A DNA stretch of 64,000 nt, taken from the NCBI RefSeq assembly GCF_056712565.1, contig NZ_CM160072.1. One strand, given 5' to 3'. Position numbers and translations under genes: made by a program. The notes beneath the pieces are model-generated. The model ran no database searches, was not told the DNA's origin, and worked only from the letters and a program-made list of their open reading frames with translations. Of the stretch, positions 2,130 through 31,922 are shown one piece after another (position 1 is the stretch's first letter; every line of letters begins with the position of its first letter).

Positions 2130-2885
2130 CTATCCACCCCTGCTTTCAGCAATGTGTTTGCGGGTTATTTTGGGGCGTTTGCGGGTTATTTGGGATGTTT
2201 TGCGGGTTATGCGATGCTTGAATAATGAACAGTGCATTTTGCAACATATTGATACTAAAGAACAAAAAATAGTTAGCACACTAAGATAACCCGGTAACCC
2301 GCATAACCCGCACTGTTTTGTATATATATACGAAAAATTGCATTCAGGAGGGGGGATCGAAATCCCTACAACCCATTGCTTATGGGACCGCCGCCTCGTC
2401 AAATTTTTACACCCGCGAAATAAAAAATACTTCACGCTGGTGGGCATGATGCTGATATGAGAGGCTTCCATAACGCCACCATTCGAAACTATGCAAATCT
2501 GCATAGAAAAGGGGATGCCTGATACAATACCCTCGCCCGATAAAATCACACCGATAAACTCATCTGCCACGAGTAGAAAGAGCGAACGAACCCGATACGC
2601 AGTAATGCTGGTCGGGTCCAGCTTTTTAAGGCGGCTGTAGATATCAGGCCATCCGTGATCATCCACCAGCGTAATTGCTGAACGCTTTAAAAAAACGTGT
2701 ACATAAGGGTGTACATAATCAAAAACCGCATTAGAAAGAAACCAGATACAATGCGGCATTGAAGCCAACACTCTACAAACAGATCCAGAACATTGAATAA
2801 CTCGTAACGCCAATTCTTCCTTTTCAGCCTTCACAAATGCCGCCCACTCAAACAGAGCGGCATTTTTCCTCCCCGCAACATTCAA
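2130..2885 (-). CDS. Long open reading frame (251 codons, alternative start) divergent from dinD; hypothetical; may be real only in its 5' ~160 codons (about 2400-2885), distal part runs through the repeat array
   Basis: Open frame of 251 codons is unlikely by chance; no plus-strand ORF competes in 2226-3010; no family recognised. Confidence 0.3.
   Translation of the reverse strand: MNVAGRKNAALFEWAAFVKAEKEELALRVIQCSGSVCRVLASMPHCIWFLSNAVFDYVHPYVHVFLKRSAITLVDDHGWPDIYSRLKKLDPTSITAYRVRSLFLLVADEFIGVILSGEGIVSGIPFSMQICIVSNGGVMEASHISIMPTSVKYFLFRGCKNLTRRRSHKQWVVGISIPPPECNFSYIYTKQCGLCGLPGYLSVLTIFCSLVSICCKMHCSLFKHRITRKTSQITRKRPKITRKHIAESRGG
2157..2313. repeat. Iteron-like repeat array: three direct TTTGCGGGTTAT copies at 2157, 2178, 2199 (21-bp phase) and three inverted copies (ATAACCCGG / TAACCCGC / ATAACCCGCA) at 2286-2312, followed by AT-rich TGTATATATATAC
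   Basis: Exact repeats read from sequence; function (origin iterons, integrase arm sites or operator array) not determined. Confidence 0.6.
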
Positions 2886-2958
2886 TTCTGTTTTGCGTGC
2901 CTGCTCCAGATTTTGCGATGTTTTTTTGCCCAGCGCAGTGAGAACGTGAGATACTCAC

Positions 2959-2978
2959 AACTGTATATAAACACAGTT
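2959..2978. promoter_or_regulatory. LexA (SOS) box AACTGTATATAAACACAGTT upstream of dinD
   Basis: Matches CTGT-N8-ACAG consensus; dinD is a classical SOS gene; sits about 44 bp upstream of dinD ATG. Confidence 0.8.
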
Positions 2979-3021
2979 GTAAACTTACTTTCCTTGCAAT
3001 CGATATCATATGGAGTGGGCA

Positions 3022-3846
3022 ATGAACGAACATCATCAACCTTTTGAAGAAATACGGCATTATGGCACTGAAGGGCAAGAATTTTGGTCAGCGAGAGAAT
3101 TGGCACCGTTACTGGATTATCGGGACTGGCGCAATTTTCAAAAGGTACTGGCCCGCGCGACTCAAGCGTGCGAAGCCAGCAATCAAGCTGCATCTGACCA
3201 TTTCGTTGAAACCACCAAAATGGTTGTATTAGGTTCAGGGGCTCAACGAGAACTTGAAGATGTTCATCTCTCCCGCTATGCCTGTTACCTGGTAGTACAA
3301 AACGGCGACCCTGCGAAACCGGTTATTGCGGCAGGGCAAACTTATTTTGCTATCCAGACCCGACGGCAGGAGCTGGCTGACGATGAAGCTTTCAGGCAAC
3401 TTCGTGAAGACGAAAAGCGTCTTTTTCTGAGAAATGAGTTGAAAGAACATAACAAACAATTAGTTGAGGCAGCGCAGCAAGCTGGGGTAGCGACAGCTAT
3501 CGATTTCGCCATATTTCAGAATCATGGTTACCGGGGACTGTATGGTGGATTAGATCAGAAAGCCATCCATCAGCGGAAGGGGCTGAAAAAGAGTCAGAAG
3601 ATCCTGGATCATATGGGTTCAACAGAACTGGCGGCTAATCTCTTTCGAGCTACCCAAACAGAAGAAAAACTCAAGCGGGATGGCGTGAATTCAAAACAGC
3701 AAGCTAATACCACACACTTTGACGTGGGTCGCAAGGTGAGGCAAACCATTCAGGAACTTGGCGGAACCATGCCTGAGGAGTTGCCGACCCCGCAGGTCAG
3801 CATCAAGCAGTTGGAAAACAGTGTAAAAATTACAGAGAAGAAATAG
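3022..3846 (+). CDS. dinD: DNA damage-inducible protein D
   Basis: Translation MNEHHQPFEEIRHYGTEGQEFWSARELAPLL... recognised as DinD; preceded by LexA box. Confidence 0.9.
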   Translation: MNEHHQPFEEIRHYGTEGQEFWSARELAPLLDYRDWRNFQKVLARATQACEASNQAASDHFVETTKMVVLGSGAQRELEDVHLSRYACYLVVQNGDPAKPVIAAGQTYFAIQTRRQELADDEAFRQLREDEKRLFLRNELKEHNKQLVEAAQQAGVATAIDFAIFQNHGYRGLYGGLDQKAIHQRKGLKKSQKILDHMGSTELAANLFRATQTEEKLKRDGVNSKQQANTTHFDVGRKVRQTIQELGGTMPEELPTPQVSIKQLENSVKITEKK

Positions 3847-4137
3847 CAGAAAATAAAAACTCTTTTTGTTGATTGAGATACCCGATGCGTAAGCCAAAGT
3901 CCAGGTGCGGTGAACACAATGGCTAAACATTGCACCTTTCTTTTCCACCCCTCAATTTTAACCTATTTTTTCTTATGCATTTTCTCAGACAAGAAGTCAG
4001 AAGAATGCATCTACGCTACAGAAAATAGCGATTTCACATAACTACAAGTTATCAATTTCCTCTCACCTTAAAAAATCTCAATCGTGACAATACGCACAAA
4101 TCGCTACCCTGCCAGACAGATTTTTAGGGAGAGAACC

Positions 4138-6475
<2,338 letters not shown>

Positions 6476-28287: not shown

Positions 28288-28579
28288 CTGCTTTTCCTTG
28301 ATGCTATAGGGGTGCTGAGACCGATAACGCATTTTGTAAACCATCCCTGCGAGAGCGAATATTCCGATATCTGGTTATTAATTTATGATTCTTGTTTTAT
28401 GTGATCGTGGTAGCGTTAATTTCGCTCATATATCATTGTAAAATATGAGTTTTATATGAACTATAATGCTTTTGTGATAATACGCTGCGTGTATTAGGCG
28501 GAAAAAACTGATCTGGGGGATGTAGAAACTCAAGGAAGTAGCTATAATGCGCCCCGCCTCCATGTAGCAATCGAGGCGC

Positions 28580-28674
28580 GGAAGATCGTCGTCTCCGGTG
28601 AGGCGGCTGGACTTCAAATCCAGTTGGGGCCGCCAGCGGTCCCGGGCAGGTTCGACTCCTGTGATCTTCCGCCA
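28580..28674 (+). tRNA. selC: tRNA-Sec (selenocysteine tRNA), 95 nt
   Basis: Sequence GGAAGATCGTCGTCTCCGGTGAGGCGGCTGGACTTCAAATCCAGTTGGGGCCGCCAGCGGTCCCGGGCAGGTTCGACTCCTGTGATCTTCCGCCA read directly; matches E. coli selC from memory. Confidence 0.95.
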
Positions 28675-28726
28675 AAATGCCTCTCCTGAACTCTCCCGAC
28701 GTCAACAACACTCCTTCGGAGGCGAC

Positions 28727-29764
28727 ATGTCAGACAAAGACTTAACCCAGCCCCCAGCAGGCGAGTTTATTATGTTTGCCAGCGGTGACGGAAGAGTGCG
28801 TGTTGAATGTCGCTTTGAGTCAGACACAATCTGGTTATCCCAGGCGGCAATGGCTGAACTGTACGATAAAGATGTTCGCACTATTAACGAACATTTAATC
28901 AATATATTTTCCGAAGGTGAACTTGTTCAAAACTCAACCATCCGGAAATTCCGGATAGTTCGCCAGGAAGGAAAACGTCAGGTTTCCAGAGAGATAGACC
29001 ATTACAACCTCGAAGCCATTCTCGCTGTCGGCTATCGCGTTCGCTCGCCTCGAGGCACGCAATTCCGCCAGTGGGCAACGCAGACGCTTCAGGAATACCT
29101 GATCAAAGGTTTTGTGATGGACGATGAGCGGCTGAAGAATCCGCCTGTCGGTTCATCGGTTGTGCCCGACTATTTTGATGAGATGCTTGAACGCATCCGC
29201 GATATTCGCGCCAGCGAGCGTCGGGTATATTTGCGGGTGCGGGAGATCTTTGCTTTAGCTGCCGACTATCAGCCATCGCTTAAAGAAACCACGCAATTTT
29301 TTCAAACCATCCAGAATAAACTGCATTTTGCCTGTACCGGGCATACCGCTGCGGAACTCATCCACAAACGAGCAGATGCCAGCCAGCCGCACATGGGCTT
29401 GACCAGTTATAAAGGTGAAGAGGTACGTAAGGGCGACGTGACGGTGGCAAAAAATTATCTCACCCAGGATGAGGTCAGCGAACTTAATCGCGTGGTTAAT
29501 ATGTGGCTGGACTTTGCCGAGGATCAGGCCCGTCGTCGTCAGCAAGTCTTTTTGCGCGACTGGCAGGATAAGCTGGATCAGTTCCTGCAATTTAACGACC
29601 GAGAGGTTCTACAGGGCGCTGGTAAAATCAGCAAGAAAATGGCCGATGAAAAAGCGCAGGCGGAGTATGTTCAGTTTGCCGAACAACAACGGCGCTTAAA
29701 AGAAGCCGAAGGCGAGAAGGATATCGCTGGTTTGCTACAGTGGAATAAAGAGTCGAAAAAGTAG
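28727..29764 (+). CDS. RhuM-family (virulence protein RhuM-like) protein, 345 aa
   Basis: N-terminal region ...IWLSQAAMAELYDKDVRTINEHLINIFSEGELVQNSTIRKFRIV... resembles RhuM family as I recall it; RhuM is selC-linked in Salmonella SPI-3. Confidence 0.65.
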   Translation: MSDKDLTQPPAGEFIMFASGDGRVRVECRFESDTIWLSQAAMAELYDKDVRTINEHLINIFSEGELVQNSTIRKFRIVRQEGKRQVSREIDHYNLEAILAVGYRVRSPRGTQFRQWATQTLQEYLIKGFVMDDERLKNPPVGSSVVPDYFDEMLERIRDIRASERRVYLRVREIFALAADYQPSLKETTQFFQTIQNKLHFACTGHTAAELIHKRADASQPHMGLTSYKGEEVRKGDVTVAKNYLTQDEVSELNRVVNMWLDFAEDQARRRQQVFLRDWQDKLDQFLQFNDREVLQGAGKISKKMADEKAQAEYVQFAEQQRRLKEAEGEKDIAGLLQWNKESKK

Positions 29765-29875
29765 CCCGGAATCCCCCCAAACGCCATACGCAAAACCATT
29801 TGGGGGTACTTATGGGGTTACTCATTTATCAAATTCAAAATATAAACATTAAATCAATAACTTAACCATCAAATG

Positions 29876-29903
29876 CGACTCCTGTGATCGCCAAAATGCC
29901 TCT
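29876..29903 (+). repeat. Direct repeat of selC 3' end (att-like scar)
   Basis: 28 of 32 positions match the selC 3' end plus downstream flank, with a 4-bp gap. Confidence 0.6.
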
Positions 29904-29971
29904 TCAGTGATCCCCATCCTGCTTATTTCTGAGCAACCTGACCCTGCTGATGTATCTGGTAGTATGACAGA

Positions 29972-30193
29972 GTGATTCGTTTTTCTTGCCGAGTGTACGA
30001 AAACGTCTTCCTTGCCACCGACTATCAACCGTCACTCAAAAAAACCTCTCTTTTTTTCAAGCTATCAAGAATAAGTTGCATTTTATCTGCACCGGACACC
30101 AGCCATCCATATATGGCTTTTACCTGCTACAAAGATGAAGAAGTGCATAAATGTGATGTTAAAACAATCAAAGAAAAATTACATGCGCAATAA
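29972..30193 (+). pseudogene. Decayed fragment of a second RhuM-like gene
   Basis: Translation ...FLATDYQPSLKKTSLFFK...YMAFTCYKDEEVHKCDV... parallels residues ...FALAADYQPSLKETTQFFQ...HMGLTSYKGEEVRKGDV... of the intact copy. Confidence 0.45.
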
Positions 30194-30333
30194 TTTCACT
30201 ATAACATTATAATCCATGGTGAAAATAACACTGCACAAGGATTGTCATCATCAAACTCATCGGAACTATTTTTTCTGTCGTCATTGGTGTAATACTGATT
30301 GTAAGTATCCTTTCAGGAGATTATTTTTGCCGT

Positions 30334-30832
30334 GTGGGGCATGGAACTTGTAAAGCAGCCAAAAGCGCTAGGCATTTAATTGAAAGTAAAGAGAAAAACA
30401 GAAGTAGTCGCGTCAAAGTCTTTAGCACGCATATTAATTTGAGTCATCCAGCGGCATCCTGGCTAGCAACTCAAACTTGCGCTAACAATATATTCAATCT
30501 GCTTCAAAACAATAATGCCATTTATTTATTCAAAAACGATAATAAAATTGAACTGCGAATGGGGTATGATTCTTTTTTCTCTATTGAAACGATTGATAAA
30601 ATTAACAAAGAAAACATCAAAGAAATAAAACTAAAAAATGATACAACATATGTTTCTCTTCCTAATCCAACCATTTTAATAACCAACGACATCAACACCT
30701 GAACGACAGTTTTCTATTTCTGTTCTGGATGATGATAACAAAGAAAATCTACCTACCGATACCGCACCTTGTTTTACAATTGGTATTCCTGATGAATATA
30801 CTAAAGCCATAGAGTTATTGAACATTAAATAA
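30334..30832 (+). pseudogene. AT-rich hypothetical ORF apparently disrupted by a +1 frameshift near 30700 (122-aa frame then about 40 more codons in the next frame)
   Basis: Two adjacent open frames of similar AT-rich, Asn/Lys/Ile-rich composition; no family recognised. Confidence 0.3.
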
Positions 30833-31001
30833 TTAAATTTCATATTGAGTTTTTTTAAACACCATATGAATAATTGTTATATGTCATTATTTCCTCCATT
30901 CACTAAAACTGATTGATTACTCTACTCCCTCACCGTCATCGGTAGTGGTATCCTTAACGTATATTGATGAAAAGACAAAACAGTATGCAGAGGGAAAAAT
31001 G

Positions 31002-31922
31002 GGTTCCACCAGAAAGGGGATGCTGAACGTTCTGATTGCCGCCGTGTTGTGGGGAAGTTCAGGGGTCTGCGCGCAATACATCATGGAGCAAAGCCAGATG
31101 TCGTCGCAGTTTTTGACTATGACGCGTTTGATATTCGCCGGTTTGATTCTGCTGACGCTATCATTTATTCATGGTGATAAAATCTTTTCTATTATTAACA
31201 ATCACAAAGATGCCATTAGCCTACTGATTTTTTCCGTGGTTGGCGCGCTAACCGTACAGCTCACTTTTTTGCTAACCATCGAAAAATCGAACGCAGCCAC
31301 GGCAACGGTGCTGCAATTCCTCTCACCGACTATTATCGTCGCCTGGTTCTCACTGGTGCGTAAATCCCGCCCGGGCATTCTGGTTTTCTGCGCTATTTTG
31401 ACATCGCTGATCGGGACTTTTTTATTGGTGACACACGGTAATCCGACGTCATTATCGATCTCTCCTGCCGCGTTATTCTGGGGGATTGCCTCGGCATTTG
31501 CTGCTGCATTCTATACCACCTATCCCTCAACGCTGATTGCCCGCTATGGCACGTTACCGGTCGTCGGCTGGAGTATGCTGATTGGCGGTCTGATCCTGCT
31601 GCCCTTTTATGCCAGACAAGGGACAAACTTTGTCGTTAACGGCAGTTTGATTCTGGCGTTTTTTTATTTGGTGGTCATTGGTACGTCCCTGACATTTAGT
31701 CTGTACCTGAAAGGAGCACAATTAATTGGCGGTCCAAAAGCCAGCATTTTAAGCTGTGCAGAACCATTAAGTAGCGCGCTGCTCTCTTTGTTGTTGCTGG
31801 GGATCACCTTCACATTGCCGGACTGGCTGGGAACGCTGCTGATTCTGTCATCGGTGATTTTGATTTCAATGGATTCCCGCCGCCGCGCCAGAAAAATAAA
31901 TCGTCCGGCGCGGCATGAGTGA
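31002..31922 (+). CDS. yicL: EamA-family transporter YicL
   Basis: [29 protein letters not shown]...; 10-TM DMT-type protein. Confidence 0.85.

What the first reader, a model, noticed from the sequence alone, without database searches (positions are those of the whole stretch)
29905..30940. Decayed AT-rich remnants between the selC repeat and yicL
Directly after the att-like repeat lies a degenerate second copy of the RhuM-like middle region (29972-30193, recognisable at protein level). It is followed by an AT-rich ORF that appears to be split by a +1 frameshift near 30700. This looks like serial integration and decay at selC, and the remnants may include an unrecognised gene family.
Basis: seen in the sequence. 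Interest (0 to 1): 0.4.

Follow-up and report, generated by a model that had tools for sequence, protein, structure and literature searches.

The report
Gene wreckage beside the selC tRNA
This stretch of an E. coli B2/ST95 chromosome is ordinary debris at a well-known island-insertion site: a broken second copy of a rhuM gene, then a small orphan gene for a membrane-anchored exported protein that a one-base insertion has inactivated in this lineage.

Summary
Both observations are confirmed. The window is 100% identical here to E. coli B2/ST95 strains such as UTI89, APEC O1 and S88.

- **att-like repeat:** 29876-29903 repeats the selC 3' end, minus 4 nt.
- **rhuM fragment:** 29972-30193 is a truncated, internally deleted, frameshifted copy of aa 166-245 of the intact rhuM at 28727-29764 (BLASTP E 5e-14).
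- **AT-rich ORF:** it is broken by one extra A at 30685/30686. The exact allele is in 164 complete genomes, so it is not an assembly error. At least 868 other genomes carry in-frame alleles, annotated as 165 aa.

The ORF belongs to a real but tiny orphan family. It is named Aec81 or "hypothetical protein" and matches no Pfam, NCBIfam, PHROG or PADLOC model. Between lineages dN/dS is about 0.2. Only two distant relatives turned up among 1.84 billion cluster representatives.

The annotated GTG start is probably wrong. A conserved transmembrane segment lies upstream in frame, preceded by AAGGA-N8-ATC and no canonical start codon. Four conserved cysteines suggest a periplasmic domain. Fold searches gave no significant match.

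In CFT073 a 68-kb island ends at the same att repeat, and K-12 keeps a different rhuM fragment (yicT). This supports repeated integration and decay at selC. The finding is an ordinary hotspot scar and of low interest.

The parts
28580..28674 (+). selC tRNA-Sec gene, the island integration target. Its last 21-22 nt plus 10 nt downstream (28653-28684) form the left copy of the att repeat.
   Evidence: ARAGORN; Rfam RF01852, 83.8 bits; repeat families D5/D6.
28727..29764 (+). Intact rhuM-family gene (345 aa). It sits between selC and the att repeat.
   Evidence: PF13310 E 4.5e-118; PADLOC PDC-S05 E 2.8e-173; RefSeq WP_001280586.1 'virulence RhuM family protein'. Present at >=80% coverage in 844 of 5,426 genomes.
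29790..29875 (+). Island right-end sequence, homologous to the right end of the CFT073 and UID2309220015 selC islands.
   Evidence: Alignment A1, roughly columns 18-100: conserved blocks such as TACGCAAA..CATTTGGGGGT.CTTATGGGGTTACTCATTTATC.
29876..29903 (+). attR-like direct repeat of the selC 3' end, lacking TTCC. It is identical in all five B2 alleles compared, whichever island lies to its left.
   Evidence: 2 matches, 0 expected.
29972..30193 (+). rhuM pseudogene fragment (aa 166-245 equivalent). It is truncated at both ends and has a 35-nt internal deletion and a 1-nt indel.
   Evidence: In strain UID2309220015 PGAP marks it 'frameshifted; incomplete; missing N-terminus and C-terminus'.
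30237..30252 (+). Probable ribosome-binding region of the orphan gene: AAGGA (30237-30241), an 8-nt spacer, then ATC (30250-30252) at the position homologous to the GTG start of the Entomohabitans homologue. There is no ATG, GTG or TTG between the in-frame TAA (30226-30228) and 30334.
   Evidence: That this is the start site is inferred, not shown.
30250..30832 (+). Orphan gene of the Aec81 family, a pseudogene in this window. The reconstructed product is 193 aa: N-terminal transmembrane helix or signal anchor (about 30253-30318), a CxxxxxxC motif, and a beta-rich domain with two more conserved Cys.
   Evidence: Alignments A2 and A3; dN/dS 0.18-0.25 over the whole gene and 0.16-0.41 for the TM segment, which is open only in this frame; AF2 model with core pLDDT 80-92.
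30334..30702 (+). The CDS as annotated in RefSeq (WP_000509809.1, 122 aa; UniProt 'Aec81'). It is the truncated reading frame that ends at the premature TGA.
   Evidence: The GTG start is not conserved: the homologous codon is GTA in L006 and CCG in L008.
30685..30686 (+). One-base insertion (an extra A) that shifts the frame. The C-terminal 43 codons, including the fourth conserved Cys, are now in the +1 frame (30701-30832).
   Evidence: Alignment A1 column 918. Allele counts are 164 with +A against 312 and 556 for the two in-frame alleles.
30833..30998 (+). AT-rich (31% GC) spacer upstream of yicL. Homology with K-12 resumes only at 30970, so any yicL promoter further upstream lies in B2-specific DNA.
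   Evidence: The promoter-like hits are no more frequent than in shuffles.
30999..31922 (+). yicL, the conserved core gene that bounds the variable region on the right.
   Evidence: RefSeq annotation; 97.6% identical to K-12 from 30970 onward.

Best explanation
29905-30940 is the old, B2-phylogroup-specific flank of the selC integration hot spot. It holds two inactivated genes.

**Shown.**
- Tyrosine-integrase islands insert into the 3' end of selC. In B2 strains different island contents lie to the left of the same decayed att repeat (29876-29903): a minimal rhuM islet here, and a 68-kb island in CFT073.
- To the right of that repeat every B2 allele examined carries the same two items. The first is a piece of an earlier rhuM copy, with both ends and 35 internal nt lost. 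The second is a small AT-rich gene directly upstream of yicL.
- That gene is a genuine protein-coding gene under purifying selection between lineages.
- In this window one inserted A at 30685/30686 truncates it at codon 122 of the annotated frame. The last 43 residues, including a conserved cysteine, are lost.

**Inferred.**
- The gene encodes an inner-membrane-anchored or secreted protein. It has an N-terminal TM helix and a roughly 140-residue beta-rich periplasmic domain, probably stabilised by two disulfides (4 conserved Cys).
- The window's copy is therefore a lineage-specific (ST95-type) pseudogene.
- The ancestral layout was probably selC-rhuM-orphan-yicL. A divergent Escherichia-like contig (L006) still shows rhuM remnants ending about 100 nt upstream of the orphan gene.
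For: **Identity and annotation**
- The window is 100% identical here to ST95-type genomes. RefSeq annotation in UTI89 is given.

**Frameshift**
- It maps to one extra A.
- The allele is exact in 164 records, and in-frame alleles are in 312 + 556 records.
- The intact 165-aa annotated CDS is present in GW-AmxH19, SA186 and CFT073.

**rhuM fragment**
- Homology is shown.

**Same flank behind different islands**
- The same att repeat and flank lie downstream of a different island in CFT073 and UID2309220015. In CFT073 an integrase sits next to selC.
- K-12 has the yicT rhuM fragment plus setC instead, and homology resumes at 30970.
- rhuM remnants occur after selC in 4,127 of 5,426 genomes.

**Orphan gene is real**
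- dN/dS is 0.18-0.25 against L006 and L008.
- The TM segment has dN/dS 0.16-0.41, is open only in this frame, and has Kyte-Doolittle hydropathy (19-residue window) of about 2.8-2.9.
- Distant homologues P0036 and P0037 (E about 1e-11) have an MKK-TM-CxxxxxxC architecture.
- L006 has the layout selC 3' end, rhuM remnants, orphan, yicL.
Against: - No expression, export or function data exist for the orphan gene in any strain.
- In B2 strains no canonical start codon precedes the TM segment. The 'intact' 165-aa alleles may therefore also be non-functional or poorly expressed.
- Within-B2 dN/dS is noisy and in one pair is about 1.
- The structural model is only moderately confident (mean pLDDT 67.5, from 6 sequences). 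No fold match is significant.
- The order of integration events, and whether island content was swapped by homologous recombination or by new integration, is inferred from a handful of alleles.
Confidence: 0.85

Rival explanations
1. The split ORF is a sequencing or assembly error, and the gene is intact in this strain.
For: Single-base indels in AT-rich DNA are a common assembly error. Some database variants (P0024, P0027) carry two T-run deletions that look like homopolymer errors.
Against: The exact 60-nt allele with the extra A is in 164 complete-genome records, including four separate UTI89 records and many independently sequenced ST95-type strains. The site (CCAACG) is not a homopolymer run. 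The 122-aa product is seen on at least 1,000 contigs.
Confidence: 0.02
2. The frameshift is programmed: recoding or phase variation lets a full-length protein still be made from the ST95 allele.
For: The downstream +1 frame is still fully open to the original stop codon.
Against: There is no slippery heptamer, no prfB-like CUU-UGA-C context, and no long homopolymer at 30680-30702. About 79% of genomes with this locus encode the protein in one frame. The open downstream frame is simply expected for a recent mutation, since ST95 alleles are >=99% identical.
Confidence: 0.03
3. The AT-rich ORF is not a gene at all, just a chance open frame in horizontally acquired AT-rich DNA. Only the rhuM piece would then be a real remnant.
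For: No family match in four profile libraries. There is no canonical start in front of the conserved N-terminus. Distribution is very narrow, with 16 representative clusters in 1.84 billion.
Against: dN/dS is about 0.2 at dS of 0.7-3 between three lineages. Four cysteines and long motifs (VSLPNP, SISVxDDD, ELRxGYxSFFS) are invariant. Homologues with normal ATG or GTG starts exist in Entomohabitans teleogrylli and one metagenome. The other two frames are full of stops.
Confidence: 0.05
4. rhuM and the orphan gene form a functional two-gene module, for example a defence toxin plus a membrane partner. The region would then be a decayed copy of that module rather than two unrelated remnants.
For: In both B2 and the divergent L006 contig, rhuM-derived sequence lies directly upstream of the orphan gene on the same strand. 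RhuM matches the PADLOC candidate defence family PDC-S05. It was proposed to be a toxin domain in defence loci (PMC3710099).
Against: The other homologues are not next to rhuM. L008 lies beside an integrase and an HTH gene. The Entomohabitans copy lies between a radical-SAM gene and an aldo-keto reductase gene. The intact rhuM in the window has no intact orphan partner. PDC-S05 is listed as a single-gene candidate.
Confidence: 0.08

Closest known systems
tRNA-associated genomic islands at selC (AGI-3 of APEC BEN2908, the GI at selC in CFT073, LEE, Salmonella SPI-3)
   Same: The locus has a direct repeat of the selC 3' end and variable cargo between selC and the repeat. An integrase sits next to selC in the CFT073 allele. 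AGI-3 is a 49.6-kb selC island of an ExPEC strain (PMC2704930). The window's 122-aa ORF carries the UniProt name Aec81; from memory, the Aec names come from that island's database entry, which I did not check.
   Different: The window has no integrase and only a 1.2-kb rhuM islet between the repeats. The stretch under review lies outside the repeats, to their right. It is therefore flank or older remnant, not part of a current island.
RhuM family (Pfam PF13310; PADLOC PDC-S05), including the K-12 yicT pseudogene
   Same: The fragment at 29972-30193 is homologous to the RhuM core. K-12 yicT is likewise a rhuM fragment downstream of selC.
   Different: The fragment covers only about 80 of 345 residues, is frameshifted, and scores below the Pfam gathering threshold. 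It corresponds to a different part of the gene (aa 166-245) than yicT (about aa 120-171).
Small periplasmic beta-barrel proteins (PliC/MliC lysozyme inhibitors, bacterial lipocalins)
Genes with AUU start codons (infC, pcnB in E. coli; recalled from the literature, not tested)
   Same: ATC or ATT sits at the position homologous to a GTG start, behind a conserved AAGGA with the same 8-nt spacing, in three lineages.
   Different: Initiation at this codon has not been demonstrated. AUC is not, as far as I recall, a known natural E. coli start. L006 also has an upstream in-frame GTG.

Membership tests
RhuM family (PF13310), for the fragment 29972-30193 | Significant similarity to the RhuM core domain | tested here: met
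   BLASTP E 5e-14 to aa 166-245 of the adjacent full-length RhuM; blastn E 2e-14. The Pfam hit is 19.1 bits, E 9e-4, below the 33.7-bit gathering score.
RhuM family (PF13310), for the fragment 29972-30193 | Complete, uninterrupted coding sequence (a functional member) | tested here: not met
   Only about 80 of 345 residues remain. There is a 35-nt internal deletion and a 1-nt indel, and the conserved block QAIKNKLHFICTGH is in another frame.
tRNA-targeted integrative island (att scar) | Direct repeat of the tRNA 3' end bounding the inserted DNA | tested here: met
   Copies at 28654-28684 and 29877-29903, identical apart from a 4-nt gap; 0 expected by chance.
tRNA-targeted integrative island (att scar) | Tyrosine integrase gene next to the tRNA | tested here: not met
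   In the window rhuM starts 53 nt after selC and there is no integrase. The CFT073 allele of the same site does have one.
Aec81-type orphan family (defined here from A2 and A3) | N-terminal hydrophobic helix followed by G-D/N-x-x-x-C-x6-C | tested here: met
   The window encodes KLIGTIFSVVIGVILIVSILSGDYFCRVGHGTC in frame at 30253-30351.
Aec81-type orphan family (defined here from A2 and A3) | Uninterrupted frame through the C-terminal conserved Cys | tested here: not met
   The extra A at 30685/30686 gives a premature TGA at 30700, and the C-terminal 43 codons are out of frame.
Aec81-type orphan family (defined here from A2 and A3) | Canonical start codon (ATG, GTG or TTG) before the TM helix | tested here: not met
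   There is none between the TAA at 30226-30228 and the GTG at 30334. The same holds in L008. P0036 and P0037 have ATG and GTG starts.
Aec81-type orphan family (defined here from A2 and A3) | Export to the periplasm and disulfide formation | not testable with these tools
   Inferred from the TM helix and 4 conserved Cys. It needs PhoA fusions or redox mapping.
Lipocalin / PliC-like periplasmic beta-barrels | Significant structural match to the 8-stranded barrel | tested here: not met
Programmed ribosomal frameshift site | Slippery motif or stimulatory context at the shift site, conserved among relatives | tested here: not met
   The sequence is ATAACCAACGACATCAACACCTGA with no slippery heptamer. 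Most relatives are in a single frame.

The most novel reading that the evidence does not exclude
The Aec81-type gene is a functional small exported protein in most B2 E. coli, and its translation starts at a conserved non-AUG codon. That codon is AUC in B2 and AUU in two other lineages, placed 8 nt behind a conserved AAGGA at exactly the position of the GTG start in Entomohabitans. This would make it a naturally weak, possibly IF3-sensitive, start of a horizontally acquired membrane protein that current annotation truncates. It may also once have worked together with the adjacent rhuM.
Probability: 0.15. Interest if true: 0.4.

Novelty: new member of a known kind. Interest (0 to 1): 0.2.

Why it matters
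There are three practical points.

- **Annotation.** The 122-aa CDS in ST95 genomes (WP_000509809.1, 'Aec81') should be flagged as a frameshifted pseudogene. The start of the 165-aa CDS in other B2 genomes is probably mis-set, which cuts off a conserved transmembrane segment.
- **Locus history.** The comparisons give a clear worked example of how the selC hot spot evolves. The att scar and right flank stay stable while the contents to the left are exchanged, and rhuM remnants are left in most E. coli (4,127 of 5,426 genomes).
- **Typing.** The +A allele is a simple marker for ST95-type strains.

The orphan family itself is very rare and of unknown function. Its wider importance is likely small unless the non-AUG start or a link to rhuM proves real.

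Tried and rejected
**Searches that found nothing useful**
- Pfam, NCBIfam, PHROGs and PADLOC on the intact 165-aa protein gave only noise hits, such as Patatin at E 0.064.
- A profile search of PDB sequences gave no hit at E <= 1.
- A scan of one genome per species (100,044 species) with alignment A2 found none. A scan of viral contigs with A3 also found none.
- A word-indexed search with the Entomohabitans homologue P0037 returned only itself.
- Rfam on 28300-31100 at E <= 1 found only tRNA-Sec.
- The promoter and terminator scan found no more sites than in shuffles.
- K-12 DNA between yicT and setC has no detectable similarity to 29904-30969.

**Structure**
- The first AF2 model, from 5 sequences, was poor (pLDDT 52). 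The second, from 6 sequences, was usable in the core.

**Ideas considered and rejected**
- Translation could begin at the upstream ATG at 30216 and shift frame at the T6 run at about 30270. The upstream frame is not conserved in L006 or L008, where it contains stops. The T5 variants in databases also carry a second T-run deletion, which suggests homopolymer sequencing errors.

**Literature**
- The original AGI-3 paper (PMC1347334) is not held.

Full report
**Context.** The window around the finding is 100% identical to E. coli B2/ST95-type chromosomes (UTI89, APEC O1, S88, IHE3034, ATCC 11775). The 1.2-kb stretch occurs in 1,127 of 5,426 complete E. coli genomes. The local gene order is:
- yicJ (minus strand)
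- selC tRNA-Sec, 28580-28674
- an intact rhuM-family gene, 28727-29764 (PF13310 E 4.5e-118; PADLOC candidate PDC-S05)
- the stretch under review
- yicL, 30999-31922, then nlpA

1. The selC 3' end (28654-28684) is repeated at 29877-29903 with a 4-nt gap. That is 2 matches where shuffles give 0.
2. The stretch 29972-30193 is a rhuM fragment.
   - It aligns to aa 166-245 of the intact copy (BLASTP E 5e-14).
   - At DNA level, two blocks of 78% and 73% identity are separated by a 35-nt deletion and a 1-nt indel.
   - It hits PF13310 below threshold.
   - PGAP already marks it as a partial, frameshifted pseudogene in one genome.
3. The AT-rich ORF at 30334-30702 continues in the +1 frame to 30832.
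   - Alignment with GW-AmxH19, SA186, UID2309220015 and CFT073 shows a single extra A at 30685/30686 in the window.
   - In those strains RefSeq annotates an uninterrupted 165-aa CDS.
   - Of 1,102 records with this site, 164 carry the window's exact allele, and 312 and 556 carry the two common in-frame alleles.
   - The frameshift is therefore a real lineage-specific mutation, not an assembly error.

**The locus in other strains.**
- In CFT073, selC is followed by a tyrosine integrase and about 68 kb of island. The island ends with a DUF4942 gene and a right-end sequence related to window 29790-29875. Then come the identical 4-nt-deleted att repeat, the same rhuM fragment, the orphan gene and yicL.
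- The att scar and everything to its right thus form a stable B2 flank, while the contents to the left differ. Here the contents are a 1.2-kb rhuM islet without integrase, present in 844 genomes.
- K-12 has selC, then the yicT pseudogene, then setC, then yicL. yicT is itself a rhuM fragment matching window 29086-29239. K-12 homology to the window resumes only at 30970.
- About 3,280 further genomes keep just that short rhuM piece.
- A divergent Escherichia-like metagenomic contig (L006, yicL about 83% identical to K-12) reads selC 3' end, rhuM start remnant, a fliB-like methylase, further rhuM remnants, orphan gene, yicL.
- Together these support repeated insertion, replacement and decay at selC. 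They suggest an older selC-rhuM-orphan-yicL arrangement; that part is inference.

**The orphan gene.**
- The intact protein matches nothing in Pfam, NCBIfam, PHROGs, PADLOC or PDB sequences.
- Public names are 'hypothetical protein' and 'Aec81', plus a spurious 'pas-pac-pac sensing his kinase' on 90-aa fragments. From memory, the Aec names come from the BEN2908 AGI-3 selC-island entry; I did not check this. AGI-3 itself is described in PMC2704930.
- A word-indexed search found only close E. coli variants plus two divergent lineages at 72% and 60% identity.
- An exhaustive profile search of 1.84 billion cluster representatives found 16 proteins in all. They include two distant full-length relatives, P0036 and P0037, at E about 1e-11. 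P0037 is from Entomohabitans teleogrylli, in an unrelated chromosomal neighbourhood.
- Scans of one genome per species and of viral contigs found nothing.
- The gene is nevertheless real. dN/dS is 0.18-0.25 between lineages at dS of 0.7-3, and long motifs and four cysteines are invariant.

**The N-terminus is mis-annotated.**
- In all three Escherichia-type lineages the frame is open upstream of the called start. It encodes a conserved, strongly hydrophobic segment, RI[VC]IIKLIG followed by about 18 more hydrophobic residues.
- That segment has dN/dS of 0.16-0.41, and the other two frames contain stops.
- The RefSeq GTG start (30334) is GTA in L006 and CCG in L008, so it is not conserved as a start.
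- The distant homologues begin MKK or MKG, then a TM helix, then CxxxxxxC.
- Nucleotide alignment places their start exactly where B2 has ATC (30250-30252) and where L006 and L008 have ATT. Each is 8 nt after a conserved AAGGA and is followed by AAA.
- B2 has no ATG, GTG or TTG between the in-frame TAA (30226-30228) and 30334.
- Either the gene uses a weak non-AUG start or the start has been lost. I cannot decide between these with the tools here.

**Structure and likely function.**
- An AF2 model from six sequences has mean pLDDT 67.5, with the core at 80-92. It shows an N-terminal helix, a poorly defined linker with a second helix, and a beta-rich domain.
- My working model is an inner-membrane-anchored or secreted periplasmic beta-domain protein with two disulfides. 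This is inferred from the TM helix and four conserved Cys, and it is untested.

**Verdict.**
- The frameshift is at 30685/30686.
- The gene starts near 30250, not 30334.
- The ORF is already in databases, though uncharacterised.

The stretch is an ordinary scar of a classic tRNA integration hot spot plus a lineage-specific pseudogene of a very rare orphan family. The only mildly unusual point is the conserved absence of a canonical start codon in front of a conserved transmembrane segment.

Noticed in passing
window 29086-29239; L011 (K-12) 2395-2524: The K-12 pseudogene yicT (b4653) is a rhuM fragment. About 3,280 E. coli genomes keep only a roughly 75-nt rhuM remnant after selC, which PGAP labels 'rhuM: RhuM family protein'.
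   Followed up: partly
window 30226-30336: The RefSeq start (GTG 30334) of the orphan CDS is not conserved in relatives. A conserved TM-coding segment lies upstream in frame, with AAGGA-N8-ATC and no canonical start. This may be non-AUG initiation or a lost start.
   Followed up: partly
window 28727-29764: The intact rhuM gene matches the PADLOC candidate defence family PDC-S05 end to end (E 2.8e-173). It sits as a 1.2-kb integrase-less islet between selC and the att scar, and 844 genomes share it.
   Followed up: partly
L010 (E. coli CUPF09, NZ_CP182142.1) 2228-4846: In this genome, labelled E. coli, the att repeat is followed by a rhuM start remnant, a fliB-like flagellin lysine methylase and a frameshifted yicL. 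yicL is only about 85% identical to the window, so this locus is unusually divergent.
   Followed up: no
L008 1041-4641: The 60%-identical orphan homologue (P0015) lies between a tyrosine integrase (PF12834/PF12835) and a 228-aa multi-pass membrane protein with no family match, plus an HTH_3 regulator. This suggests carriage on a mobile element.
   Followed up: no
window about 30852 (alignment A1 columns 1084-1094): SA186 and UID2309220015 carry an 11-nt insertion (TTTTAGTGAGG) in the AT-rich spacer upstream of yicL, relative to the window, GW-AmxH19 and CFT073.
   Followed up: no
window 30271-30276 and 30573-30578 (T6 runs): Database variants P0024, P0027 and P0033 are one T shorter at the first run, which fuses the ATG at 30216 to the TM segment. 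P0024 and P0027 also appear one T shorter at the second run. These are probably homopolymer sequencing errors, but real length variation was not excluded.
   Followed up: no
L016 4000-4005 (ENA metagenome contig): One low-coverage contig has AGG changed to ATG just before the TM segment (ACAATGATTGTC). This creates a canonical start but destroys the AAGGA. The same contig has an in-frame internal deletion in the gene.
   Followed up: no
protein cluster of the orphan ORF: C-terminal 90-aa fragments of this protein are named 'pas-pac-pac sensing his kinase' in several public records. No similarity found here supports that name.
   Followed up: no
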